Of a stretch of DNA of 30,850 nt, positions 1 to 29,889 are shown in pieces. The notes under the pieces were generated by a model that ran no database searches, was not told the origin of the DNA, and saw only the letters and a program-made list of their open reading frames with translations. A program made the translations under genes and the position numbers. Origin of the DNA: a virus (Duplodnaviria; Heunggongvirae; Uroviricota; Caudoviricetes); the IMG/VR virus record IMGVR_UViG_2917875804_000003, one strand, 5' to 3'. Each line of letters begins with the position of its first letter. The stretch's first letter is position 1.

Positions 1-174
1 ATGTACTTCGTTGGCAATAGCGATGACGATAAAGCAGCTGAGGCCACGAAGGTATGCTCTAACACAGACACTCAGAGAAACTTTGATCAGAACCTGCTCG
101 ATACGGTGACCAAATGCAAACCATTGATTGAACGTTTGGTAAAATATGAATTTAATGGACTGATGGAATGTTAG
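1..174 (+). CDS. hypothetical protein, 5'-truncated by window edge
   Basis: Open frame 1 from window start to TAG at 172-174; AT-rich; no recognisable motif. Confidence 0.2.
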   Translation: MYFVGNSDDDKAAEATKVCSNTDTQRNFDQNLLDTVTKCKPLIERLVKYEFNGLMEC

Positions 175-350
175 ATCCTATGTTTTCACATGACCGAATA
201 GATAGCAAAAAGAACCAGTTAACCTTCATTGGTGATAAGGTCAAATTCACCAATGGCTTCAATACCAAAATGACCATGACTTATGCTTGCACACTTGATC
301 TGCAAACTAAAGGAGTTGTGGACTTCAAGATTTCGGAAGAAAAGCTGTAG
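168..350 (+). CDS. hypothetical small protein (60 aa)
   Basis: ATG at 168, same strand as neighbouring small ORFs; AT-rich; no recognisable motif. Confidence 0.3.
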   Translation: MLDPMFSHDRIDSKKNQLTFIGDKVKFTNGFNTKMTMTYACTLDLQTKGVVDFKISEEKL

Positions 351-393
351 CAATTCCGCAGCCAGATTAACCTTCACTTAAGGATATTTGCAA

Positions 394-651
394 ATGGCTA
401 CCAGATACCAAACTGAGCTTGCCCTAAAGGCATTATTAACAGAGTTAAATCACTCAGGATGCGATTTGTATGAGCTAATTGAAAGAACAATTCTTCGTAT
501 GCAACAAGAACGTCTTTACATTAAAGAGGACTCTCACCGCGAAAGAGGTGGGGCAGAAGATGTCCTTTTCAGAGAAACAGAAAATCTCGTTGGTAAACGT
601 CCCCAGACTAAACCTGCTGACATTAATTCATTCGATATTGAAGATTTCTAA
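394..651 (+). CDS. hypothetical protein (~85 aa)
   Basis: ORF track 388..651 begins at TTG; first ATG at 394 has AAGGA about 10 nt upstream. No recognisable motif. Confidence 0.35.
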   Translation: MATRYQTELALKALLTELNHSGCDLYELIERTILRMQQERLYIKEDSHRERGGAEDVLFRETENLVGKRPQTKPADINSFDIEDF

Positions 652-696
652 TGTTAATTGCCGAATTATAATCAATTCGGCTTAAATATTTATTTC

Positions 697-1336
697 ATGG
701 ATATAAAAATGGACATATTTGAAAAGGGTAAGCTACTGTTATTTGTGCTTTTCATCATGCCCGGCTTTATTAGCATGAGAGTTTACAGACTCTTTCACCC
801 ATCTGCGGATTCTGACACTTCAAAAATTCTGATAGATGTAGTTTCTTATAGCTGCATAAATTATGCATTCCTATTAATACCAATATATCTAATTGAAGAA
901 AATGATATATTCCTTACTAGTCCAATCCTTTATTATTTATTTTATTTCTGTGTATTAATAGTTATCCCTGTACTACTACCTATGTTTTTAATATTTATTC
1001 GCAACTGTGAAATGGTCAAACGTTTCCTACCTCACCCTATTGGGCGTTCATGGGACTACTTTTTTTTCAACCAGACAATGCTGTTGGGTGCTGGTTACAC
1101 TTAAGAATGGTAAAAAATATGGTGGCTATTATGGTAGTGCTTCATTTGCATCAAGTAGTCCCGAACCGGAGCAAATATATCTAGAAAAACATTGGGCACT
1201 AGATGACAATTGTGATTTCGATCACGAACTAACCGATACATTAGGGATAATTATATTGACTAATGAAATAGAAAGTGTTGAATTTATTAAAGTACATAGT
1301 AGTAATCCTAGCAAAAGTGAGGCTGAAAATGGTTGA
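697..1336 (+). CDS. hypothetical membrane protein with C-terminal soluble domain, interrupted by a frame change in a T8 run (1060-1067)
   Basis: ORFs 658..1104 (hydrophobic, several predicted TM segments) and 1007..1336 join into one ~210-aa frame if the T8 run is read as T7. First ATG at 697. Confidence 0.4.
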
Positions 1337-1517
1337 AGATAAACCTGCTAACAATACAAGAACTATCCACGATGGCTGGCAACCTGTAGAAAAAGGTTAC
1401 CAGCCTACAAGCAGGCCAGACCAACAAAACAATGGCTACCAACCACCACGCCAGACCCAGCAAACCCAACATATTGCTCCGCCACCTAAAAAAACGTTAG
1501 TTAAAACCAGTTGTTGA
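1329..1517 (+). CDS. hypothetical small Gln/Pro-rich protein (62 aa)
   Basis: ATG at 1329 preceded by GAGG; low-complexity sequence with repeated YQP; may be spurious. Confidence 0.2.
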   Translation: MVEDKPANNTRTIHDGWQPVEKGYQPTSRPDQQNNGYQPPRQTQQTQHIAPPPKKTLVKTSC

Positions 1518-2154
1518 TGCCACAACTGATAAATTTCAGTTTTGAAATCATACACAAAGTATGTACAGCCCGCGTAGTTCCTATCTTCACGGGCTTCATG
1601 TTCTCATAACCATTCAGCACGAAAGTATCCTCCCCCTCCCGCATAAAACTAAATTACCAATTAAATATCAACACGGTAGAAACTTCATCATATCCACCGT
1701 CGATCCTTTCCACTGAAAAATACTGAAATTCTTTTCCATCTTTTCAGTTCACGTTAGCCACTAATCTCTCAGTAATGACGCTGTCCGTGTTGGTGGTTTG
1801 AAGAAAAAGCAAAATGAAAAAATTTTATCGATCCAGAAACCGCAGGCGGGTGCGGTGTAGCGCCGTTTTTGTCTGCGAAGGATTTATTTTGTCACCATAT
1901 CACCATACCAGCGCAACGCTACAATTCTGATCTTTTATACTTAGTGACCGAGTTATATTTGTTATTAAAGGGTTAATAATCCGTCTGCAGATGTCTATGA
2001 CAAGATAAGAAAGATGTTTTGTTAGTAATTCAACTAATTATTTGGGATTAAGTAGCCAATTATCAGTTCCGACCACATAACTTAATATTGTAGGCAGAAA
2101 ATCAGATCATTCTCATGTTACGATAATCCTCAGGATTATTAGGGAGAATAATTT

Positions 2155-2752
2155 ATGAGTAACAACAAAAAGTCTCATTATGAGGATATGAAGAAGTTGT
2201 TGTGCGCGGACATACTGCACAGCAGTAAAAAAATTCTCCTGGAGGAGAATCATACTACGTTGCTGGAGACAACCCGGACACAGATTCATGTGTTGGTGGA
2301 GGATAGCGAATTGCCTTTACTGTCAGGGAGGGAAATCAAGTATTAAGTGGGCACGAAGAATCCACCGGAGACTTGTTTCAAAATACAATACTGATATTGG
2401 ATTGGGGGCACAGATCGGGGAAAAATTCAAAATTTATCACTTCGTTGGAATAGTCATTTGTCCCCAGGCTGTGATTGGAAAAAATGTTCGTATCCGACAA
2501 AACACAACGATTGGATTAAAAACAGTTGAAGGAATCAAAGCCATCAGGATCGGAGACAATGTCGAGATTGGCGCAAATTCATGCATCATCGGTGATGATC
2601 TGACCATTGGTGATAATGTGACAATTGGTGCTATGTCATTCGTTAACCGAAACATTCCTGCCAATAGTGTCTTTATAACCCGCAGAGCCGCACAACTACT
2701 ACCGCTTGATACGCACTCCACCTCTAACTATCTTGAACTACACAACAACTGA
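2155..2752 (+). CDS. hexapeptide-repeat (left-handed beta-helix) acetyltransferase, WcaB/CysE-like; apparent frameshift near 2320-2346
   Basis: ATG 2155 with GGGAG RBS. C-terminal frame (2288..2752) has tandem [LIV]G-x-x-x-x hexapeptide repeats (IGDNVEIGANSCIIGDDLTIGDNVTIGAMSFV) that align by eye with the serine/colanic-acid acetyltransferase fold. N-terminal 63 aa are in a different frame. Confidence 0.55.
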
Positions 2753-2806
2753 AATACTGCTATCAGCAAGTCCAGAACGTTTCAACTTATCATGTGAGTG
2801 TCAGCA

Positions 2807-4510
2807 TTAGGCAATAATCACCTGATATTTTTCCCGGGTCTGCCCGGCTTTCGTCCCTGTCTGGGTGAACGCGGCGGCATTGGTTGGCATCCCAACGGAG
2901 GGATGAGAATGGCTCGCACATAGCTGCGCCAGCTCTTCCAGTAAATCAATGGTGTCCAGCATCATGGTCAGGGCGTTGATACTCTCACTGCCAATATGGA
3001 CAGTTGCCCCCATGACCTGCTGACCTCCAGTGGCTACTGATTTACGCAGTGCTGCAATCTTCTCTGTCAGGCTTTCGCCAACCTCCACGACTACAGCACC
3101 CCCCACTTTAGTGGACTGCAGTCCTGTTATGTCCGTTTCTTCGTTTCCTTCAATACTGGACAGCCTGTTACCTTTCACCGCCTGGCTATAATCACCGGCG
3201 CTGACCTGCTGGATGGCTCCAGCCAGCAATATGGCGGTTCCCAGTACCGTAGTTTTATCCGTAGCTTTCACCGCGGTTTCACGGCTGACCAGTTCGCGCT
3301 GTTCCGTATCGGCTTTTACCGTTCGCACCATCGATGTTTCACTGATGGTCTGATCGGTCTGCCTTACCCAGTCTCCAGCCTGAGTCACCCTCTGGGATAC
3401 TTCTTCCCGCTGCTGCTGCAATTGCTCACCGGGTTTAACGTCCGGCAGGCTGGTACCATCCGGCAGCGTCTGCCTGATAAAGGGTTTATCAGGTCTGCCT
3501 CCCGTGAATGCAACCTCAACCAGCGTCCCTTCTGGCGGAAACTGAAACATACCTGAATCATTCCCAGCCATCGGTACTGGCAACGGCACCGCTGAATAAA
3601 CAGGTGTCTGATTGTCCGGGTTTCCGTCTGCGTCAAGAAGCTGCACGTCCACGGCGTAACGTGGTCGGAAGGGATCGGCAAAGTTACCGCTTTTTACCGG
3701 CTCTGAATACGCCACGACTCTGGCCATCTTTGGCAAATGAAGCCCAGATGCCAGTTCAGGGTAATGGCTTTCAATCTGCCTTTGTGCCGGTGTTTTCTGC
3801 AAAGGTTTACCCGTTACGCGGTTTCTCGGCATCCATGTGATCGCCATCGTGTCATTCGTCAGATGAACCTTAGTCACGCGTTCACCGTTCATCTCCACCC
3901 CTGGCCGCATAGTCTGGATCACTGGTAATGTCACAGAGTTACCGCCAGCGGCCCCCTGGCTGAACTCTGATGGGATTTCTACGGGACGACCGGCAAACAA
4001 TGACTTTTCTGCGCCACCGACGTAAAGCGAACCATCAGGAAACTGGTACCAGATGTAATCCTGGATACTGAACGCCCTTCCCAGATTGTTCAGCAACTGA
4101 TAACCAGTACCGTTATGGGTAAAATGTGGGATAGGGGTATCGCTGTACTGTGCGTCAGGCACACTGACCGTGATCCCGCTATTTTCTTCCAACCAGACCG
4201 CAATTTCACGCAAAGTCGGGTGTTGAAACGAACATGGCCACATCCTTTCAAACACACCTGCCAACTCACGAATGAACAGGCGCTGAAAACCGTTTTCAGC
4301 GGGCTGCGATCGCTCCACATACCCCGTAAACCAGCGCAAAAGCAGATCGGTATACCCCACATCCAGCCTCACCAGTTTTCCGGTGTAATCGGTTGTTGTC
4401 TCTGCGGTGATGAAGCCCCGGCCGCAGCTGTTCAGCTCCAGTACCAGGCTGGCATCCACCAGGTGAACTTCATCCGTTGAAAGGTATAGGCGTTTTACTG
4501 GTTTCATCAT
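2807..4510 (-). CDS. baseplate central spike-like protein (gpV/gp5-type OB-fold) with N-terminal extension, 567 aa
   Basis: Internal segment VDVQLLDADG...FPPEGTLVEVAFTGGRPDKPFI matches the conserved spike OB-fold signature (PxxGxxVxVxFxxGdxdxPxI). C-terminus has an SHSHP motif like the metal-binding apex of P2 gpV. Last gene of the tail operon; GC like the phage core. Confidence 0.5.
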   Translation of the reverse strand: MMKPVKRLYLSTDEVHLVDASLVLELNSCGRGFITAETTTDYTGKLVRLDVGYTDLLLRWFTGYVERSQPAENGFQRLFIRELAGVFERMWPCSFQHPTLREIAVWLEENSGITVSVPDAQYSDTPIPHFTHNGTGYQLLNNLGRAFSIQDYIWYQFPDGSLYVGGAEKSLFAGRPVEIPSEFSQGAAGGNSVTLPVIQTMRPGVEMNGERVTKVHLTNDTMAITWMPRNRVTGKPLQKTPAQRQIESHYPELASGLHLPKMARVVAYSEPVKSGNFADPFRPRYAVDVQLLDADGNPDNQTPVYSAVPLPVPMAGNDSGMFQFPPEGTLVEVAFTGGRPDKPFIRQTLPDGTSLPDVKPGEQLQQQREEVSQRVTQAGDWVRQTDQTISETSMVRTVKADTEQRELVSRETAVKATDKTTVLGTAILLAGAIQQVSAGDYSQAVKGNRLSSIEGNEETDITGLQSTKVGGAVVVEVGESLTEKIAALRKSVATGGQQVMGATVHIGSESINALTMMLDTIDLLEELAQLCASHSHPSVGMPTNAAAFTQTGTKAGQTREKYQVIIA

Positions 4511-5055
4511 TAACCCAAAGCATCATTGACGGGCTTCAGTACCTTGCGTTCAAACCACGTCAGTTTTTCTTCATCTTCTCCGGCAGACTGGCCACCGGAC
4601 TGTCCCGCACTACCGGCAGTCTGTTTTTTTGCGGTCGTCTTACCTGTTGCCCTAGCCTCTTGCTTTTCCTGCACGCTGATATGTTCCGCCAGTGTGAATG
4701 TCACCAACCAGGACATCTTCCCGTCCTGCTGGGGTGCATCCACCGTTCCGCTGAACGTTGCTTCACGAAAGTTAACAGCACGGGCAACTTCATGCACCAC
4801 GCGATATTTCTGACGATTACCACTGGCATCGGTAGTACTGGCCAGCTCAAAAATACGCTTTAGTACTTCAGGCTGTTTAAAAGGTATTTCACCGCTGATC
4901 CGCAGTTCCTTTCCCTTTGCTCCCTGCTCTGATTTTGTTGTGGCACTGGTCTGGCCGGACTGATCTTTATCCTGAAATTGCTGTGAAACAGTCACCCGCA
5001 TGTTTTTCAGCTGGATGGCCTCGCCATTAAGCGCCAGTGTCGGGATCGAAGTCAT
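4510..5055 (-). CDS. hypothetical tail/baseplate-associated protein (181 aa)
   Basis: ATG 5055 with AAGGGA RBS inside the 3' end of the upstream gene; sits between fibre assembly gene and spike; no recognisable motif. Confidence 0.4.
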   Translation of the reverse strand: MTSIPTLALNGEAIQLKNMRVTVSQQFQDKDQSGQTSATTKSEQGAKGKELRISGEIPFKQPEVLKRIFELASTTDASGNRQKYRVVHEVARAVNFREATFSGTVDAPQQDGKMSWLVTFTLAEHISVQEKQEARATGKTTAKKQTAGSAGQSGGQSAGEDEEKLTWFERKVLKPVNDALG

Positions 5056-5752
5056 GAATCATTCCCTTTATTCCATCAAGATTATCGCCAACCAGCATCA
5101 TGGCTGCGGTGTAAACGGCAGACTGCTGCGGAATGTCCTTCACCAATTCCAGTAACAAGGTGCCGGTGTCTCCGCTGGCAGTAAAAACCCATACTCTGGC
5201 ACTTTTACCTTGTAAATCATTCAGGCCGCTGGCCACATCACTGATAAGCTGGTCACGCAGCTGAGTGAACTCGCCCAGCTGTTTTTTCAGCCCTTCGATA
5301 TCAAACCCGGCACCCGCCGCCTTTTGTGCCTGGCTGATTGCCGCAGCAGATAAAGCTGCCCTGGTGGTTGGTACAGACAGTGGAATGGACGCAGGTAACG
5401 CTGCGGCGGCTTTCGCCGGGATCTGCATCTTTTCAATAGCCAGCGCTGCGGCGGATTGCACCAGCCGTTTGACCTGCGTGAATGCCGGGGCAGGGAAAAT
5501 CCCGGCCAGGTTATTCAGGCTGGTCATAAAGTTTTCCTGCGTCTGTCCAGTGACCATCATAATCACCACGTCCGCATTCCCCCCAGTTCCGGCCAGGCGT
5601 TCAGCAAGATAGCGAACGGCATTAACCGGGCTGAGATATGCCCCGTTCGCTGTCTGCTGTCCCAGCCCATAAATCCACGGATGCGCAGGGACGATCGAAC
5701 AGTTCAGCGCAGCAACAGAATCCGTGAAGGCCAGACGTGCTTCACGCCACAT
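5027..5752 (-). CDS. hypothetical tail/baseplate-associated protein (~240 aa)
   Basis: ORF 5027..5788; internal ATG at 5752 reduces overlap with the upstream gene. Ala-rich; no recognisable motif. Confidence 0.35.
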   Translation of the reverse strand: MWREARLAFTDSVAALNCSIVPAHPWIYGLGQQTANGAYLSPVNAVRYLAERLAGTGGNADVVIMMVTGQTQENFMTSLNNLAGIFPAPAFTQVKRLVQSAAALAIEKMQIPAKAAAALPASIPLSVPTTRAALSAAAISQAQKAAGAGFDIEGLKKQLGEFTQLRDQLISDVASGLNDLQGKSARVWVFTASGDTGTLLLELVKDIPQQSAVYTAAMMLVGDNLDGIKGMIHDFDPDTGA

Positions 5753-6329
5753 TTCCAAGTATCTCCGGCCATACAATTTGCGGCGCATCTTCCGGTTGAA
5801 TACGGTTCAGTAAAACGCGGTATTTTTTCCAGGCGGTAAGCAGCAGTGCTTCTTCTTCGGTCGCCATGTCTAAATCAACGGCATCCTGCAATGTGGCAAT
5901 AGCGTCATTGGCCTGTTTAAGTAGTCTTTTCTTTTCGGCGTCTGCCTCGCTGACTAATGCAATTCGCATGGCATCCGCATCATCCACCCACGTCTTACCA
6001 TTCCATTTTTGCCAGGCATTAGCCGGTGCTAACGTGGTTGTCCCTTCCGGGTAAGCGCCTGGCTCGGAGATCACCAGTTCATTACCGTTTTCTGTATCAA
6101 ACAACACCTCACCACGATGATCCTCACGAGAAACCCATTTTTGCTTCTCTGAATCATAAATTGCCACAAACCCCGCTTTTATTACCGGTGGTTTTATTGT
6201 GGTGCAGTTGGCTGGCAGTCCGGTATACGCAGGTATAAAAGCGTCACCCAAACCAATAAATTCATTCGTGTCAGAACGCAGGTTATAAACGGTAACTGTT
6301 TGATCCGTTTCACTCATTTTAAAAGTCAT
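5742..6329 (-). CDS. tail fibre assembly protein (Tfa / gpG-like chaperone)
   Basis: C-terminus ...LQDAVDLDMATEEEALLLTAWKKYRVLLNRIQPEDAPQIVWPEI is the classic Tfa signature; immediately downstream of the tail fibre gene (TAATG overlap). Confidence 0.8.
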   Translation of the reverse strand: MTFKMSETDQTVTVYNLRSDTNEFIGLGDAFIPAYTGLPANCTTIKPPVIKAGFVAIYDSEKQKWVSREDHRGEVLFDTENGNELVISEPGAYPEGTTTLAPANAWQKWNGKTWVDDADAMRIALVSEADAEKKRLLKQANDAIATLQDAVDLDMATEEEALLLTAWKKYRVLLNRIQPEDAPQIVWPEILGNVA

Positions 6330-7904
6330 TATGCGAGTCTCACTATGTAGTTAAATACGATGTTTTTAACGGTCGTTTCTTCATTGCCCGACGCGGCGAC
6401 AGTAATGGTGTGACTGTGTGCGCCTATTGCTACGGTATGAGAGTGAGCTCCAATTCCTACAGAATGGCTATGTGCGCCAATCCCTACAATATGAGCATGG
6501 TTGCCAGCCAAATCCGTATTACCAGTTGTTACGTTATCGCCACCCTGACCTCTATTGATATCTCCGTTTTGAGTGGCCTGCCCCTTAACATATGTATGAG
6601 TATGTGCACCAGTTGTATCGGTTGTTTTGGTTCCGTAATCAAATGTGCTCACAGCTCTAGTGCCGTAGTCAAAGGATGATGTTGACTTCGTCCCCAGATC
6701 GGTACTGAATGCACTAGCGGTGTGGGCATGGGATTTATTGCCATCATCTTCATAGGACAAAACTGCACGGCCATCAGGTTTTCCTTTGATCGTCTGGCGG
6801 CGCATATCAGGAAGAACACCCGATGGGTATGCAATAGCCAGTCGCTGGTAAGCCACTGGATCAAACACCTGCCCCTGCATGATTGCGTGACCCGCTGGTG
6901 GAATATCAGTCGGCCAAGGAAATGGTACTCCAACCGGCACAACATCGCTAATGCTTAAGACCGCCAGCTCACCCAGCCCAAGATTTTTTCTGGCTTCCGC
7001 CTTGTCATTGATATCGGCAAGGTTTGCATCCTTACGCAAAAAATCGCTGCTGGCCTGTTGATCGCTCAGACTGCCTTTTGGCCTTAAATCCGTGATGTTG
7101 CCATCCACATCAATGCTGGCCACCGCAAATACAAAATGCTGAATACCGTTCTGAACATAATCAGTCAGATTTTCTACAACCGTGACTTTACTCTGTACAC
7201 TCCAGACACTGCTCAGAATCCCTGTCCAGCACACATCCAGCCAGACTTTTACCGACTTTGTCGTCACTGTAATATCCTGATTCGCATCCAGTGACACACG
7301 CAGTCCAGCCACATACCCCGTGCCTTTCGTGACATAAAACTGATTGCCGGTTTTGGCTACCAGATACCCGTTACCAAAAAAACGCCGCCGCGCCATAAAT
7401 ATCTGTATTTTCCAGACGCTGGCGCTCATCAATTCCGGCCAAACGTGCAGTAAAATCAATCTGCCAGGTTTCAGCGGGCGTATTAATCCCAGTTTCTGTT
7501 TGTGCACCGTTGTACTCCATCAGAAACGAGCGGGTCAGCACGTTCCCCTGTTGCCCTTCTTTTGTTTTCAGTTTCTGCTGTGCTGGTGCATGAACAATCA
7601 TTGCCAGCGTACCGCTGGCCTTATTGAGCAGACCAATCCAGTTAAAACTGAAATCCCCCACATCTGCGCCCAGCACTACGGAATAGACCACCCTGTTTTC
7701 ATCCACCACACCGGTACGGGTAACAGCTTGCCGGTGAACAATCTGTGCTGTCGGGGGCAACCCTTCATTGCGATCAACAGGGATATCCGCGTTTAAATCC
7801 GGCACACTGGCAAAAACAAATTCGTCCAGTAGTACCGGTTCACCTGTTGCGCCCTGCTGTGCTTTCCAGTTTTCAAACGCCAGTGTGATGGCTGTCTGTG
7901 ACAT
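6329..7904 (-). CDS. tail fibre protein, reading frame broken at an A7 run (7376-7382 on + strand; T7 in the coding sense)
   Basis: ORF 7371..7904 (conserved fibre N-terminus) and ORF 6329..7507 (distal part with HxH repeats) fuse in frame (...[19 protein letters not shown]...) if the run is 6 nt. Followed by Tfa. Confidence 0.75.
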
Positions 7905-9679: not shown

Positions 9680-10023
9680 AAATCCACCTGCGCAGAGATC
9701 CCACCAAAATCGTATGTACTCGCGGTTACCCACAGCCGCTTCTGACTTTCTTCACTGATTTCCACCGTACCCGGCACAATGCGTTCATCATATTCAATCA
9801 GTAATTCCATACGGGTAAAAATATCCGCTCTCATTGTCGGGCTACGTTCGGCTATTAATTCCGTAGCCAAACCACTTTCAATAATGGAATGAATAATGTC
9901 CTGCCCGATGCTTTTTCGGTTATTACATAATTCAGGTTCATTACCGGTATTCAGAACAAAATCACCGCCCTGAATCAGCAAATCAATATAAAGAACATTA
10001 CTCATGCACCAAGCTCCTGCCAT
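9676..10023 (-). CDS. baseplate protein, gpW/gp25-like
   Basis: 115-aa ORF immediately upstream of J-like gene and coupled to it; size and position match gpW (115 aa in P2). Confidence 0.5.
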   Translation of the reverse strand: MAGAWCMSNVLYIDLLIQGGDFVLNTGNEPELCNNRKSIGQDIIHSIIESGLATELIAERSPTMRADIFTRMELLIEYDERIVPGTVEISEESQKRLWVTASTYDFGGISAQVDL

Positions 10024-11968
10024 TCCATAAGCTGGAGTGGAGAAAATGCTTCTTTGGTATGGAAATGCACTTCACCAATTTTCCGGCTGTTATCGATTAC
10101 AGATGTTGTGTTGCTGCTGATTGTTTTACTGATACCACCATTATCCACACCTTTTAAATCGCCCCCCGTAGACAGCGTATTACCAGTTAATGGCTGTAAG
10201 GTTTCACTGGCCAGAGAAATATCCACGCCGGGAATTTCATTCAGTTTCTGAACAATCCAGTTCCACGACTTAAGAAATCCCTCTTTGATTGAGTTCCAGA
10301 CAATATCAAACAGCGACATAATACCGGTGGCCATTCCCTTTAATGCCTCAGATGGCGAAAATCCTGTCAGCATAGAAATGAAGCTGTTCCATCCATCACT
10401 GACATATTGCCAGGCTATAACAAAGATCCCCGCTAGCCATTTCACTACGGCAGCGCATACCTGAAAGGCTTCGGTATTCATCACCGATGCTTTTATCGTG
10501 TTCCAGTGCTTAACCAGCAGATAACAACCAGCAACAAGCAGCGCAATGGCACCAATCACAAGCAGGATTGGCCAGCTCATCAGATTGATACCAATTCCGG
10601 TCATCATTGCGGCCATGCGTACCGCCAGTAACGCGCCGCGTAAAAACTTCAGCGTGGTATTCCAGGCGATTACCGCCATTTGCGCCAGCCAGACAGTCGC
10701 CGTGTAGATTTTCGTAACCGCCGTTAACGCCCCCCAGATCCCACGTAATCCCATCATGATGAATCTGGATACCCCCATCACGATATTGCAACCGCACCCA
10801 CGGCGGCAAAGCTCAGTAGTGCCACCGACGCATAACCAATCACACGGGCAATGTTAGGAAACAACTGCATCCAACGAGCAAAGGTCTGCCCCATATCAGC
10901 CAGGCGATTCAGAACCGGATACAGCACCGGGATCAGCGTCAGTCCGATCACGGTCTGAATGGCTTTCAGGATTTGTACAAAGCGATCCCACGGCTTAACC
11001 ATTTTTTGTGCCATTTCCTGGGTACGCTTCAGGCCGTCCGCGCCGCCCAGTTCGGTGATGTTCCGCTGAAGTAACGCGACATTGCCGTAAAGATGTTTAA
11101 CCACTGCCGAACTGTCACCAAAGGCTGCATCCAGCTCCGCCTGGGCTTTCAGGTTCCCTTCAAGGCTTTTGCCATATTTGCCCTGCAACTTGATCAGCAT
11201 TTCAGGCATGGACAGCATTTTGCCGGTGGAGTCAGTAAAGGACAGCCCCAGCTTTTTAGCGCCATCAATCGCGCCGGTCATAAATCCTTCATAGGCGCTG
11301 CTGGCTTCCGTTCCCAGCGTCCGCTGAAGTTGCCCCAGCACGGCCAGCTGTTCATCCAGCCCCACACCGTAGTTAGTCCCGACGCCGCGCGCACCTTCCA
11401 TCAAATCCTTGATAGTGGCCATTTCTGTGCCAAAGGTTTTGCGCATATAAACCATCTTGCCTGCCAACTGCTCGGCAAATTCCACCTTGCCCAGTCTGGC
11501 GGCATCGGCGGAAAAGTTACCGAACATCTGCCCCATAAATTCCGCCGTGTCCGCCGCTGTGGACTTGAGCGCAAACGCCAGGGTATTGGCGACTTTCGTC
11601 ACCTTCGGCAGTTCATTACCCGTCAGTCCGGCAATGGAAGCGTTAATATTTTCCGTGGATTTAACAAACTCCACCGCACTGGCACCATAGGTTGTACTAA
11701 AGCGCAGGGCATCACGCTGAACTGTCTTAAGTGCTGAATCATCAATACCTTTTGCGGCAGCATCATTCAGCGCGTCATACATTTCAATTGCCGGTGATAA
11801 AGCACTTTTGATCTCCATCCCGATGCCTGCCAGCGCCAGAACGCCACCACCGATCTGCATAAAGGCTGCTTTTGATTTTTCCGCAAAGCCGGTGACGTTA
11901 CCTTGCACCTGTTTTAACGGGCGGGATAATTTATCAATCAGGCTTAATGTAAAATCTAATTGTTTCAT
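10002..11968 (-). CDS. tail tape measure protein, encoded as two overlapping ORFs (10778..11968 and 10002..10781) with a frame change at a GTGATG junction
   Basis: N-terminal ORF is long, helical and Ala/Gly-rich; C-terminal ORF is a hydrophobic multi-TM segment typical of tape-measure C-termini. Sits directly after the chaperone frameshift extension. Confidence 0.7.
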
Positions 11969-19621: not shown

Positions 19622-21397
19622 ATGGCTAAATACTCTGAAGAATTAAAAGGCGTTGTTCGTGCACTTTATCTGCGCCGCTATACGCCAAAGGAAATCGCAT
19701 CTGAATTAAATCTGCCGAATGCGCGGATCGTTTACTACTGGGCGGAGAAATACAGCTGGGCGGATTTGCTCAGTTTTGAAAGCACAGAGGAAGCAATTGA
19801 ACGCCGTTACCAGCTGCTGGCCAGCCGCGATAACAAAACCGATCTCGACCTGAAAGAAATGGACATGCTCATTGCTCATGCCACGAAACTGCGTGCGCAG
19901 AGTAATAAACACAAAGAGAAAATGGCCAGCGGTCAGAGTTCCGGGCAAGCAGCTGCGCGGGACAACAATGACGACGAACCACGCAGCAAACGGAAATACA
20001 AGAAAAACGATATTACGTCGCTGACGCAGGAGGACTTTGACGCATGGGCTGAAGAACATCTTTTTGAATATCAGAAACACCTGCGCAATAACATTGGCCA
20101 GCTTGTCAGGAACATCCTGAAAAGCCGCCAGATCGGTGCGACCTGGTATTTTGCGTTTGAAGCGTTTGAAAACGCGGTGATGACCGGCGATCCGCAAATC
20201 TTTCTGTCAGCGTCAAAGGCACAGGCTGAAGTGTTCCGGTCTTACATCGTGAATATTGCAGAGCAGTATTTCGGTATTACGCTAACCGGCAACCCGATCC
20301 GCTTAAGCAACGGCGCAGAACTACGTTTTCTCTCCACCAACAAAAACACCGCCCAGTCCTACAGTGGCCACCTGTACTGTGACGAATATTTCTGGGTGCC
20401 AAACTTTGCAAAACTTAACGAAGTGGCCAGCGCAATGGCCACACATGACAAGTGGCGCACCACCTATTTTTCAACGCCATCGGCAAAAACGCACCAGGCT
20501 TACCCGTTCTGGACGGGCGATGAGTGGAAACAGGGCAGTAAAAAACGTGCGGCCATTAAGTTTCCGTCCTTTAACGAAATGCGTGACGGCGGGCGACTCT
20601 GCCCGGATGGGCAATGGCGCTACGCCATTACGATGGAAGATGCCATTGCAGGCGGTTTCAACCTGGCGAACATCGAGAAACTTCGCAATCGCTACAACGA
20701 CGCCACTTTTAACATGCTCTATATGTGCGTGTTCGTTGACAGCAAAGATTCCGTTTTCAGCTTTTCCGATCTGGAAGCCTGCGGTGTTGAAATCGACACC
20801 TGGCAGGATCACAACCCTGATGCAGCGCGGCCATTTGGTGACAGGTCGGTATGGGGTGGCTTTGACCCGGCTCGCAGCGGTGATTTGTCCTGTTTTGTCA
20901 TCATCGCGCCGCCGATACTCGCCGTGGAGAAATTCCGCGTTCTGAAGGTGATTTACTGGAAAGGCATGAACTTCCGGTACCAAGCAAAACAGATCGAGCA
21001 ATTGTTTAAAAAATACAACTTCACTTATCTGGGTGTGGACGTTACCGGCATTGGCCAGGGTGTTTTTGACAACATTCAGCATTTTGCCATGCGCGTGGCC
21101 GTCCCTATTCGTTACGACCTGAACACCAAAAATCAACTGGTACTGAAAGCGGTAGACGTGGTGGAAAGCCAGCGTATTGAGTGGGATAAAAACCTGAAAG
21201 AGATCGCTGCCAGCTTTATGTCTGTGCGCCGAACCACCACACAAAGCGGCAACGCCATGACGTTTGTCGCTGACCGCAGCCAGGATACTGGCCACGCGGA
21301 GGCGTTCTGGGCGATTACCCACGGTCTGCATAACGAACCCCTTAACTATGAAAACAAACCTAAATCCCGCTGGGGTGTAAGGAAAGAGGCTGCATGA
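19622..21397 (+). CDS. P: terminase ATPase (large) subunit, gpP-like
   Basis: 591 aa (P2 gpP is ~590 aa); divergent from O and ATGA-coupled to the portal gene, as in P2 P-Q. Confidence 0.85.
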   Translation: MAKYSEELKGVVRALYLRRYTPKEIASELNLPNARIVYYWAEKYSWADLLSFESTEEAIERRYQLLASRDNKTDLDLKEMDMLIAHATKLRAQSNKHKEKMASGQSSGQAAARDNNDDEPRSKRKYKKNDITSLTQEDFDAWAEEHLFEYQKHLRNNIGQLVRNILKSRQIGATWYFAFEAFENAVMTGDPQIFLSASKAQAEVFRSYIVNIAEQYFGITLTGNPIRLSNGAELRFLSTNKNTAQSYSGHLYCDEYFWVPNFAKLNEVASAMATHDKWRTTYFSTPSAKTHQAYPFWTGDEWKQGSKKRAAIKFPSFNEMRDGGRLCPDGQWRYAITMEDAIAGGFNLANIEKLRNRYNDATFNMLYMCVFVDSKDSVFSFSDLEACGVEIDTWQDHNPDAARPFGDRSVWGGFDPARSGDLSCFVIIAPPILAVEKFRVLKVIYWKGMNFRYQAKQIEQLFKKYNFTYLGVDVTGIGQGVFDNIQHFAMRVAVPIRYDLNTKNQLVLKAVDVVESQRIEWDKNLKEIAASFMSVRRTTTQSGNAMTFVADRSQDTGHAEAFWAITHGLHNEPLNYENKPKSRWGVRKEAA

Positions 21398-22455
21398 GTA
21401 AAAAGAAACGCTTTGTTAAGCGCGACCAGCGCGGCGACAAATCAAAAAAGATGAGCATTATCACATTCGGCAAACCTGAACCGGTTCTGACTACCGGCAC
21501 AGATTACCGTGATATCTGGTACGACAATGCCGCCGATCACTTCACCCAGCCGATTGACCGGCTGGCACTCGCGCAACTGATTAATCTGAACGGTCAGCAC
21601 GGCGGCATCATTCACGCCCGCAAAAACATGATTGTTTCAGATTACCAGGGGGGCGGACTTATTCACGACCAGCTGGAAGCGGCAGCGTATGACTATATAA
21701 CCTTTGGGGATATTGCGATTGCCAAAATTCGTAACGGCTGGGGAGACGTTATCGCACTTGAACCCTTACCCGGTCTGTATATTCGCCGCCGCAAAGTCAG
21801 AGATAACGCCCTGGATAAGCCCGGTGACTACGTAGTGTTACAGGAAGGGGAACCGCAGATATGGCCAGAAGAAGATATTATCTTTATCAAAATTTATGAC
21901 CCACAACAGCATATCTACGGACTTCCGGACTACATCGGCGGTGTGCATTCCGCGTTACTTAACAGTGAAGCGGTCATTTTCCGACGCCGCTACTACCACA
22001 ACGGTGCGCACACAGGCGGAATTCTTTATACCCGCGATCCCAGCATGACGGACGAAATGGAGGAAGAAATTGAACAGCAGCTGCGTGACAGCAAAGGGAT
22101 CGGGAACTTCTCCACCATCCTTGTAAACATTCCCGGCGGAGACGGCGACGCCATCAAGTTCATTGAAATGGGTGATATTTCTGCTAAGGATGAATTTGCC
22201 AACATCAAGAACATCAGCGCACAGGACATTCTGAACGCGCACCGTTTCCCTGCCGGCCTCGCCGGTATTGTCCCGCAGAACACTGCCGGACTGGGGGATG
22301 TTGAAAAGGCTGAACGCATTTATAAGAAAAGCGAAATTGCCCCCATCCAGCGCCGTTTCATGCTGGCCGTTAACAACGATCCCGAAATACCGGAAAGGTT
22401 GCACCTAAACTTTGATTTAAGTTACATAGAATCAATAGATAAAGGTGCGGCATGA
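21394..22455 (+). CDS. Q: portal vertex protein, gpQ-like
   Basis: 353 aa, AAGGAAAGAGG RBS, coupled to the terminase gene; size and position match P2 gpQ. Confidence 0.85.
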   Translation: MSKKKRFVKRDQRGDKSKKMSIITFGKPEPVLTTGTDYRDIWYDNAADHFTQPIDRLALAQLINLNGQHGGIIHARKNMIVSDYQGGGLIHDQLEAAAYDYITFGDIAIAKIRNGWGDVIALEPLPGLYIRRRKVRDNALDKPGDYVVLQEGEPQIWPEEDIIFIKIYDPQQHIYGLPDYIGGVHSALLNSEAVIFRRRYYHNGAHTGGILYTRDPSMTDEMEEEIEQQLRDSKGIGNFSTILVNIPGGDGDAIKFIEMGDISAKDEFANIKNISAQDILNAHRFPAGLAGIVPQNTAGLGDVEKAERIYKKSEIAPIQRRFMLAVNNDPEIPERLHLNFDLSYIESIDKGAA

Positions 22456-22505
22456 TGCGAAACTGGCTAAAATCCATGCTTCATTTAACAGCGGGAGCAT
22501 GGAAT

Positions 22506-22775
22506 ATGCGAGTTCTGAAAATCGAATGCCCGGAATGCGGCTCAAAGGCTGTTATTCGTAAAACGAACAGGAAGCACCGACAAATTGCGGATATTTACTG
22601 CGCCTGCTCAGATGTTGAATGTGGCCACACATTTGTTATGAATCTGACATTTTCCCACACTCTTAGCCCCAGCGCTAAAACGGGTGATGCGGTGGTGCAA
22701 AAAATACTGAGTGCACTTTCTCCCGCTCAGCGCCAGGTGGCATTCGATTTACTGAAAGTGACTCCCGCTGCCTAA
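22506..22775 (+). CDS. ogr: Ogr/Delta-family zinc-finger late transcription activator
   Basis: MRVLKIECPECGSKAVIRKTNRKHRQIADIYCACSDVECGHTF: C-x2-C ... C-x4-C zinc finger typical of P2 Ogr / 186 B; ATG 22506 with GGAG RBS. Confidence 0.75.
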   Translation: MRVLKIECPECGSKAVIRKTNRKHRQIADIYCACSDVECGHTFVMNLTFSHTLSPSAKTGDAVVQKILSALSPAQRQVAFDLLKVTPAA

Positions 22776-23081: not shown

Positions 23082-25103
23082 CTAGACCCACCCCGGCCAT
23101 AACTCGTTTAATGGCTCGTTTTGAATCTCTTTAAGCCACCCATTACGGTAAACCAGTCCCCCTTGGCCAAACATCAAACCACTACCCCGCAGGAGAATGG
23201 CTATTTCTTCATTAGAACCGTTAAAACCCCGACTGCATAATTCCAGTTTTAACCGTCTGAGGATTCCCCCCTCCGTACAGTTATTGACAGAACTCCAAGG
23301 GGCGGCGTTGCCGCCAGAAAACCCCGCCTCCGCTGGCGCTTCGGCCAACTTCGCAACCTTTTGCCACTTAACCAGACGGGTGCAAACTTCCGAATCAGGA
23401 ACCAAAGGAGAATAAACCCCCTGTACGCGCTGCACGTCCTCTGCGTACTCGTTGCCCTGTTCCGTAATTTCATAGGCCAGACGAACAACCAGATCACGGC
23501 GGGCAACCAGTGCACCGCCCTGCGCCTGGGTATATGCAGCCCAGTCCCCGACATCAGCAGCGGCCAGAACCGCATCCATTCTGCGATCGGTCAGCACCTG
23601 ATCCCGCAACCGACGCAGCTCACGCCAGACACTTACCGGCGCACCACCAATCTGCTGAAACTGACGAATACGCCAGCGTGAAGCCCATGCAGAAACGGAC
23701 TTAGCCATATCACGCAGGTTTTCGCCGGTTTCTTCGTCCTGCTCACCATCCAGCGCAAAACCATCAATATTTTTTGAAATGTATTTCGCGATGTAGCCCG
23801 TGGCCGAACCTTTGGCGGGATCGATAACTTCAACATGAAAACGCGCCTTCAGCGCCTTTTCAGATTGCAGTTCTTCAGAATCGGTAATTCTGGCGTGATA
23901 GCAAAGAATATCGCGTACCGTGTCCACGTCATGCGGACGCATAAAAAGCAACATATGCCAGTGCGGTGTCCCGTCATGGTGAGGCTCAACAACCCGAAAC
24001 CCAAATACATGAATACCCGCACGCGAGATCGCTGCGCGTGCTTTTGCCCATACGCCGCATAAATAGCGCTGGGTATCCTGCGGTGTACATCCATCCCATT
24101 GCGATACAAAGCCACCTTTGCTGTGCACTGCGTGGAAACGTGATGGCGCGGTGATGGTGTAAAACTCACCGGCCAGCCCTTCTTCATTGGCCATATCTTC
24201 AAACCCTCGCATTCTTACCATTAGTTCACATCGACGGATCGCCGGATTTGCAATGCTGCGGTGCACCATGCTGTCCAGTGCAATGCGCAGCCCCTCATCA
24301 TTCAGCAGATCAAACTTTTTAAAGAACTCCAGATTCCGCTTTTTCTGGTCTATCCATTCGTCCAGTGTTTTGCGGGATACATAAGCGCTGGCCGCTTTTT
24401 GTACCTGTCCCACCGCGATGGCCATATGTTCGCGCTGCATATCACGCGCACGTTTAAGACGTAGGTACCACCATTCCGGCGCCATCATGCGCAGTATCCC
24501 GGATTCCGCCTTACGCATTTCCAGTTGACCTTCATTGGCCTCATGTTCAGCCCAGTACGGCGGCTGGTTATTCAGCATCAGGCAACCCGCGCAAAGATGG
24601 CGGTATGATTCCAAGGTGCGGCGATGCAGCTCTCTGGCGTCGTCAGTGCCGGAGTCAAACTGTTCGGTGAAGTCATAAAGTGACTGGGAAATCCAACCAG
24701 ATACCTGGCCAGCCAGTTTTTTAAGATCAGGACGGTCTAGTGACGGCAAGCGCTCCAGCGACTTACCAAAAGTAAGATCAGCAGCGTCAGCGGCCAGCGA
24801 GTAACGCGCAGCCACTTTGCGCAGACGTGGCAATACACTCCCGCCGATAGTCTGGCGCAGGAATGTATTGGCACGACAACGCCCGTCACGACCAGCAAAC
24901 AGCTTTTCGTAACGACGGCCAAAATACCCGGCTAACCAGTCGGGTATCTCATGCAGGTACCGGGCTCTCCATTCATAATCCTGCGGATTTACAGCCCACA
25001 AACGGCGTTCTGTGATTGTCGCGTCTGCCGGTATGCAAGATGCGAAAGTTTCACGCCGCCACGTATCGACAGCATAGAAGTGTTCCTTTATAGCCAACAT
25101 CAT
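23082..25103 (-). CDS. A: replication initiation protein A (rolling-circle HUH endonuclease, P2/186 gpA family)
   Basis: 673 aa with HUH motif (GTPHWHMLLF) and catalytic tyrosine motif (TGYIAKYISK); last gene of the early operon. Confidence 0.9.
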   Translation of the reverse strand: MMLAIKEHFYAVDTWRRETFASCIPADATITERRLWAVNPQDYEWRARYLHEIPDWLAGYFGRRYEKLFAGRDGRCRANTFLRQTIGGSVLPRLRKVAARYSLAADAADLTFGKSLERLPSLDRPDLKKLAGQVSGWISQSLYDFTEQFDSGTDDARELHRRTLESYRHLCAGCLMLNNQPPYWAEHEANEGQLEMRKAESGILRMMAPEWWYLRLKRARDMQREHMAIAVGQVQKAASAYVSRKTLDEWIDQKKRNLEFFKKFDLLNDEGLRIALDSMVHRSIANPAIRRCELMVRMRGFEDMANEEGLAGEFYTITAPSRFHAVHSKGGFVSQWDGCTPQDTQRYLCGVWAKARAAISRAGIHVFGFRVVEPHHDGTPHWHMLLFMRPHDVDTVRDILCYHARITDSEELQSEKALKARFHVEVIDPAKGSATGYIAKYISKNIDGFALDGEQDEETGENLRDMAKSVSAWASRWRIRQFQQIGGAPVSVWRELRRLRDQVLTDRRMDAVLAAADVGDWAAYTQAQGGALVARRDLVVRLAYEITEQGNEYAEDVQRVQGVYSPLVPDSEVCTRLVKWQKVAKLAEAPAEAGFSGGNAAPWSSVNNCTEGGILRRLKLELCSRGFNGSNEEIAILLRGSGLMFGQGGLVYRNGWLKEIQNEPLNELWPGWV

Positions 25104-27567: not shown

Positions 27568-28148
27568 GTGAAACTACAAATTGAATTTTCTCATGGCGGA
27601 TCAGAAGTCTTGGACAGAGTCATCCAGGCGTATGGTTTCAACACAAAATTAGCCCTGGCCGAACATCTTGATATAGCAAGTAGCAGCCTGGCTAATCGCT
27701 ACAAGAGGGATTTTTTTTCCAGCAGATATCGTTGTTAGATGCATGGCTGAAACGGGAGCAACTCTGGAATGGCTTGCGACTGGGCAAGGAAGAAAGTTTA
27801 ACGATGACGAATTAGACATCATGAAACTGCCGCGTAAGAAGATTGTGGACGGAAAACTCTATGATTCCGGTTTGCTAATGCTCGATAAGGTTACTTTTTT
27901 ACCTGGTAAGCCTTTACCACAGAATCCAATCTGTGTGATTGACAACGCAATGCAGTACATTGTTGATCAACACTTTCCCGAAGTTTACGACGATGATTGG
28001 TTAGTTGAAATTGAAGGAAAAACAAGTGTGAGAACCCTTACGCGCATCCCCGTAGGCAAAGTTCGAGTGAGTGGCGTTGGGATGGCATTTGATTGCGCTA
28101 TCGAAGATATAAAAAATTTTAGGTCGTATTATCTTAACTATAAAATAA
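27568..28148 (+). CDS. cI: CI repressor, phage 186 CI-like; frame interrupted twice at homopolymers (T8 27711-27718, A6 28111-28116)
   Basis: GTG 27568 with AAGGA RBS. With one base removed per run the product (~190 aa) reads VLDRVIQAYGFNTKLALAEHLDIASSSLANRYKRDFFPADIVVRCMAETGATLEWLATGQG ... WLVEIEGK ... DIKILGRIILTIK, paralleling 186 CI end to end. Confidence 0.75.
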
Positions 28149-28162
28149 TAAGGAAAATTATA

Positions 28163-29826: not shown

Positions 29827-29871
29827 TAACACTGTAAGTTATTGTTTTTCGTAGATAGTTGATGCTTTATA

Positions 29872-29889
29872 ATATAGCCTGTGCTATAT
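29872..29889. promoter_or_regulatory. MntR-box-like palindrome in the mntS promoter
   Basis: Perfect inverted repeat ATATAGC-ctgt-GCTATAT, about 60 bp upstream of the mntS start codon; matches the TAGC-N4-GCTA core of Mn-responsive MntR operators. Confidence 0.5.

What the first reader, a model, noticed from the sequence alone, without database searches (positions are those of the whole stretch)
1..2752. AT-rich cargo block at the distal end of the tail operon: small ORF array, membrane protein and hexapeptide acetyltransferase
Directly beyond the last tail gene lies ~2.7 kb of visibly AT-rich DNA carrying a same-strand array of small ORFs, a multi-TM protein with a soluble C-terminal domain, and a convergent WcaB/CysE-like acetyltransferase. 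None is a recognisable phage core gene or a host core gene I would expect next to mntS. This is a typical phage accessory locus. The acetyltransferase could O-acetylate a surface polysaccharide, as known prophage acetyltransferases do for serotype conversion and receptor masking; the upstream genes could be a small defence or toxin-type module. I cannot assign them to a known system.
Basis: partly seen in the sequence, partly recalled or inferred. Interest (0 to 1): 0.55.

Follow-up and report, generated by a model that had tools for sequence, protein, structure and literature searches.

The report
Accessory genes flanking prophage cos site
The AT-rich block is the swappable "cargo" region on either side of the DNA-packaging (cos) site of a P2-family (ESSI-2-like) prophage. 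This is a known kind of hotspot where related phages carry anti-phage systems, and here it holds intact genes of unknown function.

Summary
The AT-rich block is real (GC 0.38 against 0.51) and belongs to an ESSI-2-like Peduoviridae prophage inserted between mntR and mntS. It is not one locus. A conserved 190-bp element (1702-1894) is the phage cos site (cosN 1846-1860), and it splits the block into two independently exchangeable cargo slots.

- **Slot 1 (1-~1700):** a decayed Zn-ribbon membrane gene (A), an 85-aa orphan (B), DUF6338 (C: 3 TM helices plus a predicted Sm-like domain) and a translationally coupled 56-aa G-[Y/W]-Q-P-repeat protein (D).
- **Slot 2 (1895-2800):** a stand-alone SAT-like hexapeptide acetyltransferase (phrog_2154).

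The frameshifts that break C, the acetyltransferase and the tail fibre in this window are +1 homopolymer assembly errors. Two independent assemblies differ from the window only at five such runs. Only gene A is really disrupted.

All five genes evolve under purifying selection (dN/dS 0.02-0.13). In the same slot, relatives carry Shosta, PDC-S64, AbiJ-like and HEC-04-like genes. This makes it the cos-adjacent hotspot described for P2/P4 phages, although cos sits elsewhere in this lineage. No gene here matches a known defence system, so function remains inferred. The finding is ordinary in kind, with modestly interesting uncharacterised cargo.

The parts
1..350 (+). Gene A, 3' 350 nt of a pseudogene. 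The intact form is 165 aa: N-terminal zinc ribbon, one TM helix and a ~110-aa extracytoplasmic domain (phrog_13160). The gene starts 147 nt left of the window.
   Evidence: Intact 165-aa orthologues occur in E. coli SC477 and Salmonella Infantis, with phrog_13160 3e-45 and Zn-ribbon Pfam hits. In this lineage there is a frame-breaking deletion after codon ~33 and a 1-nt deletion at window ~154. Both are shared by three assemblies. dN/dS of the intact copies is 0.02.
394..651 (+). Gene B, an 85-aa soluble protein with an acidic C-terminus and no known family.
   Evidence: No Pfam, PHROG, NCBIfam or PADLOC hit. Only 9 representative clusters among 1.84 billion proteins. Conserved with A and C in SC477, GF131 and Salmonella. 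dN/dS 0.08-0.13.
709..1336 (+). Gene C, a DUF6338 membrane protein of 208 aa: 3 TM helices plus a C-terminal Sm-like beta-barrel. The extra T in the run 1060-1067 is an assembly artefact.
1329..1500 (+). Gene D, a 56-aa Pro/Gln-rich protein with three G-[Y/W]-Q-P repeats that ends in PPPKKR. Its ATG overlaps the stop of C (ATGGTTGA). The extra A in the run 1488-1494 is an artefact that lengthens the ORF to 1517 in the window.
   Evidence: A7 against A6. Conserved 54-56-aa orthologues all end in PPPKKR. dN/dS 0.04-0.13. A G-[YWH]-x-P-repeat ORF follows DUF6338 in 10 of 13 loci, including distant MAGs. 19 clusters of homologues, with no Pfam family.
1702..1894 (.). Phage cos region. cosN is GCGGGTGCGGTGTAG at 1846-1860, preceded by repeated/inverted CTGAAA motifs at 1712-1750. 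This is conserved backbone that separates the two cargo slots.
   Evidence: Found at 74-91% identity in 46 further E. coli genomes and in ESSI-2-like phages. The ESSI-2 record ends and starts with the same 15 nt. The ev015 record ends inside this 15-mer, and the ev015 and ev040 records carry Nextera adapter sequence exactly here. The 15-mer occurs once in the window.
2155..2752 (+). Stand-alone hexapeptide (left-handed beta-helix) acetyltransferase, SAT-like, 198 aa. The extra A in the run 2227-2233 is an assembly artefact.
   Evidence: A7 against A6 in L026 and L028, where a 198-aa gene is called. The corrected protein matches phrog_2154 over its full length at 3e-58, Hexapep at 46.8 bits and homologues through the frameshift site. 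It is below the cut-offs for EpsC, CysE and WcaB. The closest solved structures are serine acetyltransferases. dN/dS 0.12.
2807..4510 (-). Baseplate spike, the last gene of the tail operon. It forms the right-hand conserved flank of slot 2.
   Evidence: phrog_2258 3.2e-272; Phage_base_V and Gp5_C. An identical protein occurs in L026-L028.
29868..29878 (.). attR copy of the 11-bp att core TATAATATAGC, between int (28738-29826) and mntS (29948-30076). The attL copy lies off-window next to mntR.

Best explanation
**What is shown.** Bases 1-2752 are the accessory ('moron'/defence-hotspot) DNA that flanks the cos site of an ESSI-2-like P2-family (Peduoviridae) prophage integrated in the mntR-mntS intergenic region.
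- In the prophage the order is attL - P' arm - slot 1 - cos - slot 2 - spike gene.
- In the linear virion DNA the two slots are therefore the two extreme ends of the genome.
- Each slot is bounded by conserved phage backbone (att arm and cos; cos and spike gene). Its contents are swapped among related phages.
- The cargo genes are real and under purifying selection. The cassette A-B-C-D travels as a unit. C-D is a conserved two-gene module.
- The breaks in C and in the acetyltransferase are sequencing artefacts. Only A is truly a pseudogene.

**What is inferred.**
- The genes are lysogenic-conversion genes expressed from the prophage.
- Slot 1 most likely encodes an inner-membrane phage-exclusion or abortive module. 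DUF6338 would oligomerise through its Sm-like domain, with D's short G-Y-Q-P repeats as a ligand or regulator.
- The acetyltransferase is a cytoplasmic acetyl-CoA-dependent O-acetyltransferase. Its acceptor is not serine. It is most plausibly a sugar or polysaccharide precursor, which would alter a surface receptor.
For: **Prophage and att.**

**cos.**
- Terminal 15-nt duplication in ESSI-2.
- Record end and adapter junctions of the ESSI2_ev015 and ev040 phage records, isolated as plaques from viromes (PMC6969025), at the same 15-mer.
- Conservation in every relative.

**Hypervariability of slot 1.** About ten different contents were seen in the elements inspected:
- the A-B-C-D cassette;
- PDC-S64 + C + D;
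- ShosT + ShosA + DUF6680;
- ATPase + STAS + PIN;
- HEC-04-like ATPase + hexapeptide acetyltransferase;
- AbiJ-like;
- hexapeptide acetyltransferase + 3 hypothetical genes;
- Abi_C + C + D;
- two hypothetical genes;
- empty.

Sources.

**Slot 2.** Acetyltransferase, another small gene, or empty.

**Literature.** Rousset et al. describe P2 and P4 defence hotspots as adjacent to cos (PMC9122126).

**Artefacts.** The window differs from two independent assemblies only by five +1 homopolymer insertions in 10.5 kb.

**Selection.** dN/dS 0.02-0.13.

**C-D module.**

**Structure of C.**

**Acetyltransferase.** A family of stand-alone genes at prophage ends. It recurs in either slot. It is SAT-like but lacks the residues that align with SAT's D-H and G-D-R-H-P motifs.
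Against: - No gene in the block matches any PADLOC model. There is no experimental or expression evidence.
- Distant DUF6338 loci in MAGs sit among housekeeping genes, not defence genes.
- Gene A of the cassette is inactivated here, so the full cassette may not function in this strain.
- The cos assignment rests on record termini and adapter junctions, not on direct end mapping.
Confidence: 0.75

Rival explanations
1. The block is decaying junk. It is a pseudogenised remnant with no function, as the multiple frameshifts in the window would suggest.
For: As read in the window, A, C and the acetyltransferase are all interrupted. A is interrupted in all three assemblies.
Against: The breaks in C, D and the acetyltransferase are +1 insertions in A6/T7 runs. 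They are absent from two independent assemblies that are otherwise identical over 10.5 kb. The same type of error breaks the essential tail-fibre gene. B, C, D and the acetyltransferase show dN/dS of 0.04-0.13, and intact copies are widespread.
Confidence: 0.1
2. The whole 2.7 kb is a single multigene system (one operon) in which the acetyltransferase works with the upstream membrane proteins.
For: All genes are on the same strand and contiguous in the prophage.
Against: cos lies between them, so in virion DNA they are at opposite genome ends. They also assort independently. SC477, GF131 and Salmonella have A-D without the acetyltransferase. ev040 and L005 have the acetyltransferase without A-D.
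Confidence: 0.04
3. The acetyltransferase is a true serine O-acetyltransferase (CysE-type auxiliary metabolic gene) that boosts cysteine synthesis. It would not be a surface-modifying enzyme.
For: Databases name homologues 'serine acetyltransferase'. The nearest solved structures by sequence and fold are SATs. The catalytic His is invariant.
Against: It scores 70 bits against the CysE cut-off of 210.65. It is 184-198 aa, whereas the solved SAT chains are about 240-340 aa, and it lacks most of the N-terminal SAT domain. In the HMMER alignments SAT's D-H becomes Y-H and G-D-R-H-P becomes G-I-K-A-I.
Confidence: 0.1
4. Slot 1 is a toxin-antitoxin or addiction module that stabilises the prophage, rather than a phage-exclusion system.
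For: It consists of small, translationally coupled genes (C/D overlap ATGGTTGA) with a membrane protein as a possible toxin. Hotspots of this kind also hold TA-like systems such as ShosTA (PMC9122126).
Against: No TA family is matched. C-D also occurs in non-mobile contexts in distant MAGs. This reading is not exclusive of an abortive-infection role.
Confidence: 0.15
5. The block is host or island DNA unrelated to the prophage. It would be a separate islet trapped between mntR and the phage.
For: It is AT-rich, unlike the phage backbone. The window does not include attL.
Against: attL lies to the left of the block in the same lineage (L026) and in SC477. Plaque-isolated relatives carry cargo in the same position. 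The cassette accompanies ESSI-2-like prophages at three different att sites. It is absent from >99.9% of E. coli genomes that have the mntR-mntS locus.
Confidence: 0.02

Closest known systems
[quoted passage not shown] 2022, PMC9122126; P2 old/tin region; de Sousa-type survey PMC13586616)
   Same: It is immediately adjacent to cos and bounded by conserved backbone. Its content is hypervariable among relatives and includes recognised defence systems (ShosTA, AbiJ-like, PDC-S64, HEC-04-like).
   Different: In P2 the hotspot and cos lie between gpA and gpQ. In this ESSI-2-like lineage cos lies between the spike gene and attP, about 20 kb from the portal gene in this window (portal 21394-22455), and there are two slots, one on each side. 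The cargo here matches no known system.
NeuO, the polysialic-acid O-acetyltransferase of prophage CUS-3 in E. coli K1 (PMC3046976)
   Same: It is a prophage-borne, soluble, left-handed beta-helix (hexapeptide) acetyltransferase carried as a stand-alone moron.
   Different: NeuO is not among the 50 PDB sequences matched at E<=0.001. There are no phase-variable heptanucleotide repeats. The acceptor is unknown. The fold is closest to the SAT/WcaB branch.
Serine acetyltransferase CysE / colanic-acid acetyltransferase WcaB / EpsC (SAT-like hexapeptide subfamily)
   Same: The best sequence and structure matches cover the helical linker and the beta-helix. The catalytic His is conserved.
   Different: It falls far below every equivalog cut-off. 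It lacks most of the SAT N-terminal domain and the residues that align with SAT's D-H and G-D-R-H-P motifs. It is not in a cys or polysaccharide gene cluster.
Sm/LSm/Hfq ring proteins; from my own knowledge, MscS-type channels also combine 3 TM helices with an Sm-like beta domain
   Same: The predicted C-terminal domain of DUF6338 superposes on Sm/LSm/Hfq. It is preceded by three TM helices.
   Different: There is no sequence similarity. Ring formation, RNA binding and channel activity are untested. MscS did not appear among the listed fold hits.
Prophage membrane superinfection-exclusion proteins (for example P22 SieA, HK97 gp15, T4 Imm; from my own knowledge)
   Same: They are small inner-membrane proteins encoded as morons at prophage ends.
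   Different: There is no homology, and no exclusion phenotype has been shown.

Membership tests
cos-adjacent accessory/defence hotspot of P2-family phages | Lies directly next to the phage cos site | tested here: met
   cosN 1846-1860 lies between the two cargo slots. The evidence is the 15-nt terminal duplication in ESSI-2 and the record end and adapter junctions of ev015 and ev040.
cos-adjacent accessory/defence hotspot of P2-family phages | Gene content varies between conserved flanks among related phages | tested here: met
   About ten different slot-1 contents were seen in the elements inspected.
cos-adjacent accessory/defence hotspot of P2-family phages | Alternative cargos include recognised anti-phage systems | tested here: met
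   ShosA 2e-52 plus ShosT 5e-10, PDC-S64 2.5e-47, AbiJ 3e-16 and HEC-04 3e-33.
cos-adjacent accessory/defence hotspot of P2-family phages | Position between replication gene gpA and portal gene gpQ, as in P2 | tested here: not met
   Only an Ogr-like gene and about 300 bp lie between the portal gene (21394-22455) and the gpA-like gene (23082-25103). The cos 15-mer is absent there.
cos-adjacent accessory/defence hotspot of P2-family phages | The cargo present confers phage resistance | not testable with these tools
   This needs plating assays.
Known anti-phage systems (PADLOC-DB v2.0.0) | HMM match of any component | tested here: not met
   No hit at E<=0.01 for A, B, C, D or the acetyltransferase.
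DUF6338 (PF19865) | Score above the Pfam gathering threshold over the full length | tested here: met
   126 bits against 26.5, residues 8-195 of 208. The sequence tested equals that of L026.
Sm/LSm fold | Structural superposition of the domain on Sm proteins | tested here: met
Sm/LSm fold | Hexa- or heptameric ring and nucleic-acid binding | not tested
   No multimer prediction tool or biochemistry was available.
Hexapeptide (left-handed beta-helix) acyltransferase superfamily | Hexapep repeats above the Pfam threshold | tested here: met
   PF00132 46.8 bits against 27.
Serine O-acetyltransferase CysE | Score above the equivalog cut-off | tested here: not met
   TIGR01172 70.3 against 210.65. 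PRK11132 46.1 against 397.
Serine O-acetyltransferase CysE | Conservation of SAT's D-H and G-D-R-H-P motifs (recalled as the serine-binding residues) | tested here: not met
   The aligned positions read Y-H and G-I-K-A-I. Only the His is invariant.
Colanic-acid acetyltransferase WcaB | Score above the equivalog cut-off, and location in the wca cluster | tested here: not met
   67.8 against 194.65. Family members are stand-alone genes at prophage ends.
NeuO-type prophage capsule O-acetyltransferase | Detectable sequence relation to NeuO, and phase-variable 5' heptanucleotide repeats | tested here: not met
   NeuO is not among the PDB matches. There is no tandem repeat in the 5' coding region.
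AT3-type serotype-converting O-acetyltransferases (Oac/OafA) | Integral-membrane acyltransferase-3 domain | tested here: not met
   Only hexapeptide-type Pfam families matched. The predicted protein is soluble, made of helices and a beta-helix.

The most novel reading that the evidence does not exclude
DUF6338 and its coupled G-[Y/W/H]-x-P-repeat mini-protein, here with gene B and in other phages with gene A, could form a previously unrecognised phage-exclusion or abortive system. It would be built on a membrane-anchored Sm-like ring whose activity is gated by a short-linear-motif peptide. The recurrent SAT-like acetyltransferase would be a second, independent receptor-modifying or defence moron. 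A corollary is that in P2-family phages the defence hotspot tracks the cos site rather than particular neighbouring genes.
Probability: 0.25. Interest if true: 0.6.

Novelty: new member of a known kind. Interest (0 to 1): 0.35.

Why it matters
- It places an uncharacterised and fairly widespread gene pair (DUF6338 plus a repeat peptide) and a recurrent phage acetyltransferase family in a hotspot that otherwise holds validated anti-phage systems. That makes them reasonable candidates for defence screening.
- In a P2-family lineage whose cos site has a different genomic position, the variable cargo still sits next to cos. This supports the idea that proximity to cos, not particular neighbouring genes, defines these hotspots.
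- It is a practical caution. Three apparent pseudogenes in this window are homopolymer assembly errors.

Tried and rejected
- **Rfam scan of 1-3000:** only a chance lncRNA match. I had first considered the 190-bp element as an sRNA or terminator. The terminator-like hairpin at 1849-1872 turned out to be the cos cohesive-end sequence.
- **Promoter scan:** fewer sigma-70-like sites than in shuffles, so uninformative.
- **PADLOC, NCBIfam and PHROG searches of B, C and D:** no functional name.
- **Literature search for DUF6338:** one incidental mention only.
- **Phase variation of the acetyltransferase through its A-run:** rejected. The run is A6 in two other assemblies, the same error type hits unrelated genes, and there are no repeat tracts.
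- **Direct repeat of the att core inside the window's left 3 kb:** none. attL is off-window.
- **AFDB fold library:** unavailable.
- **Context of distant DUF6338 loci:** mixed. It is a defence-island-like setting in Dryocola and housekeeping in MAGs, so it gives no general support for defence.
- **Scan of genome contigs:** returned only 12 DUF6338 loci, too few for statistics.
Full report
**1. Observation**

The left 2.75 kb of the window is markedly AT-rich. GC is 0.384, against 0.511 for the phage backbone, and no other 2752-nt window falls below 0.425. Its ORFs are all on the + strand. The adjacent gene on the - strand (2807-4510) is the baseplate spike, the last gene of the tail operon (phrog_2258 3e-272).

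**2. Setting**

The window is a P2-family prophage. Its main features are:
- capsid, terminase and portal genes in P2 order;
- an HP1-ORF34-type baseplate protein;
- a gpA-like replication gene;
- CI (27743-28360) and integrase (28738-29826);
- mntS (29948-30076) and opgE beyond the integrase.

The host flank is only 88-95% identical to E. coli, so the host is an Escherichia outside E. coli proper (inference). The nearest described phages are Cronobacter phage ESSI-2 and the Escherichia ESSI2_ev phages (Peduoviridae).

The 11-bp att core TATAATATAGC occurs next to mntS in the window. It occurs again next to mntR, to the left of the block, both in an assembly of the same lineage (L026) and in E. 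coli SC477 and PSS-07. The block therefore lies inside the prophage.

**3. The frameshifts are mostly artefacts**

As read in the window, gene A, the DUF6338 gene and the acetyltransferase gene are each split. The window is 100% identical over 10.5 kb to GCA_004745305.1 (L027).

Two independent assemblies that encode the identical spike protein are L026 (GCA_005781195.1) and L028 (a Logan assembly of SRR8835205). They differ from the window by no substitutions and by exactly five single-base insertions in the window, each in a homopolymer:

| Position | Run in window | Feature affected |
|---|---|---|
| 1060 | T8 | DUF6338 (C) |
| 1488 | A7 | gene D |
| 1817 | A7 | cos region |
| 2227 | A7 | acetyltransferase |
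| 7376 | A7 | tail fibre |

This is the signature of homopolymer miscalling. In L026 and L028 the genes are called intact (208 aa and 198 aa). Gene A, in contrast, carries a frame-breaking deletion after about codon 33 and a 1-nt deletion at window ~154 in all three assemblies, so it is a real pseudogene.

**4. A cos site splits the block**

A 190-bp non-coding stretch (1702-1894) is the only part of the block found in 46 further E. coli genomes and in every ESSI-2-like phage. Three lines of evidence mark it as the cos site:
- The ESSI-2 record ends with ...CAG|GCGGGTGCGGTGTAG and begins with GCGGGTGCGGTGTAG|TGCCG, a 15-nt terminal duplication.
- The ESSI2_ev015 record ends inside this 15-mer.
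- The ev015 and ev040 records carry Nextera adapter sequence at exactly this junction.

These ev phages were isolated as plaque formers from viromes (PMC6969025). I conclude that 1846-1860 is cosN and that the repeated CTGAAA motifs upstream are probably terminase-binding sites (inference). The 15-mer occurs once in the window, and nothing comparable lies between the portal and gpA-like genes, where P2 has its cos.

**5. Two cargo slots**

*Slot 1* lies between the att arm and cos. Its content differs from element to element:

| Element(s) | Slot-1 content |
|---|---|
| Window, SC477, GF131 (tRNA-Ile site), Salmonella Infantis (rpoD-mug site) | A-B-C-D cassette |
| Combat13F7 | PDC-S64 + C + D + others |
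| PSS-07 | ShosT + ShosA + DUF6680 |
| JNE25-001 | ATPase + STAS-like + PIN |
| MFDS1019527 | HEC-04-like ATPase + hexapeptide acetyltransferase |
| ev040 | AbiJ-like protein |
| ev015 | hexapeptide acetyltransferase + three small genes |
| Enterobacter remnants | Abi_C + C + D |
| EcPF15 | two hypothetical genes |
| ESSI-2 | no annotated gene |

*Slot 2* lies between cos and the spike gene. It holds the acetyltransferase in the window, ev040 and a metagenomic contig. It holds a different small gene in SC477 and nothing in most others.

This matches the published description of P2 and P4 defence hotspots as 'adjacent to the cos site' (PMC9122126). A 2026 survey lists further minor P2 hotspots but, using only GpQ-L, integrase and primase as anchors, does not resolve this one (PMC13586616).

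**6. The genes**

- **A.** Intact elsewhere at 165 aa. It has a zinc ribbon, one TM helix and an extracytoplasmic domain (phrog_13160).
- **B.** An 85-aa orphan with only nine related clusters among 1.84 billion representatives.
- **D.** Its start overlaps the stop of C. It is 56 aa, Pro/Gln-rich, and has three G-[Y/W]-Q-P repeats and a PPPKKR end. A similar repeat protein follows DUF6338 in 10 of 13 loci examined, including distant MAGs.
- **Acetyltransferase.** It matches phrog_2154 end to end (3e-58). It belongs to a large enterobacterial family of ~184-aa stand-alone genes at prophage ends or remnants, not in polysaccharide clusters. It is SAT-like by sequence and by fold but far below the CysE, WcaB and EpsC cut-offs. 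It keeps the catalytic His but not the residues that align with SAT's D-H and G-D-R-H-P motifs. A 42%-identical paralogue occupies slot 1 in ev015 and MFDS1019527.
- **Selection.** All five genes evolve under purifying selection, with dN/dS of 0.02-0.13.

**7. Mechanism**

*Shown:* this is a cos-flanking, exchangeable accessory region carried by the phage, and its genes are real and conserved.

*Inferred:* these are lysogenic-conversion genes.
- For slot 1, I favour an inner-membrane exclusion or abortive function. The reasons are that equivalent slots hold defence systems, that two of the four proteins are membrane proteins, and that C-D looks like an effector with a small partner. I put this at roughly 35-40%. 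Docking of D's repeats onto the Sm-like domain is speculation.
- For the acetyltransferase, I favour acetylation of a sugar or polysaccharide precursor that changes a surface receptor, at about 35%. A bona fide serine acetyltransferase is unlikely, at about 10%.

None of these functions has been tested.

**8. Comparison and novelty**

The locus is a new member of a known kind, the cos-adjacent hotspots of P2-family phages. It differs in where cos lies and in having two slots. Its cargo matches no catalogued defence system. The most novel reading still open is that DUF6338 plus its repeat peptide is a new membrane-based anti-phage module.

**9. Verdict**

The general interpretation (phage accessory locus) is supported. 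The specific functional guesses remain untested. Three refinements matter: the cos site, the two independent slots and the artefactual frameshifts. Interest is modest (0.35).

Noticed in passing
window 7376 (A7), 10002-11968, 28252 (A8): Genes outside the finding also look broken by indel errors of this assembly. The tail-fibre gene is split at the A7 run, whereas it is intact at 524 aa in L026 and L028. The tape-measure gene appears as 396-aa and 259-aa ORFs, whereas L026 calls a single 655-aa gene. The CI region contains an A8 run.
   Followed up: partly
L004 (NC_049393, ~record 29,650) and L019 (NC_049395, record 13-48): The public records of phages ESSI2_ev040 and ESSI2_ev015 contain Nextera transposase adapter sequence (TCGTCGGCAGCGTCAGATGTGTATAAGAGACAG) at the cos junction. 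This is contamination in the deposited genomes.
   Followed up: yes
L002 (E. coli PSS-07), L003 (Combat13F7), L037 (GF131): These are short prophage remnants of the form attL - cargo - cos - early genes - CI - int - attR, with all structural genes deleted. They keep cos and the defence cargo. Such elements could in principle be packaged by a helper ESSI-2-like phage, like a satellite.
   Followed up: no
window 22452-22775 (+): An Ogr/Delta-type zinc-finger late-gene activator (CPEC...CACSDVEC) lies directly after the portal gene. In this lineage no cos or cargo lies between the portal and gpA-like genes.
   Followed up: partly
window 29868-29878 and the off-window attL: The att core TATAATATAGC lies inside the short mntR-mntS intergenic regulatory region. 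The prophage therefore separates the divergent mntR and mntS genes by about 30 kb and replaces one side of each upstream region. Effects on manganese regulation are unknown.
   Followed up: no
L035 2933-4792 (E. coli JNE25-001): Slot 1 holds a three-gene set (ATP-binding protein, STAS-like protein, PIN-domain protein) with no PADLOC match. It is another uncharacterised candidate system in the same hotspot.
   Followed up: partly
L008 (Dryocola sp. BD613) 2134-7728: Here DUF6338 and its repeat-peptide gene sit in a DUF3987/YfjJ-type integrative island, next to a ThiF-family protein and an SMC_N/AAA_21 ATPase. This is a setting typical of a defence island.
   Followed up: partly
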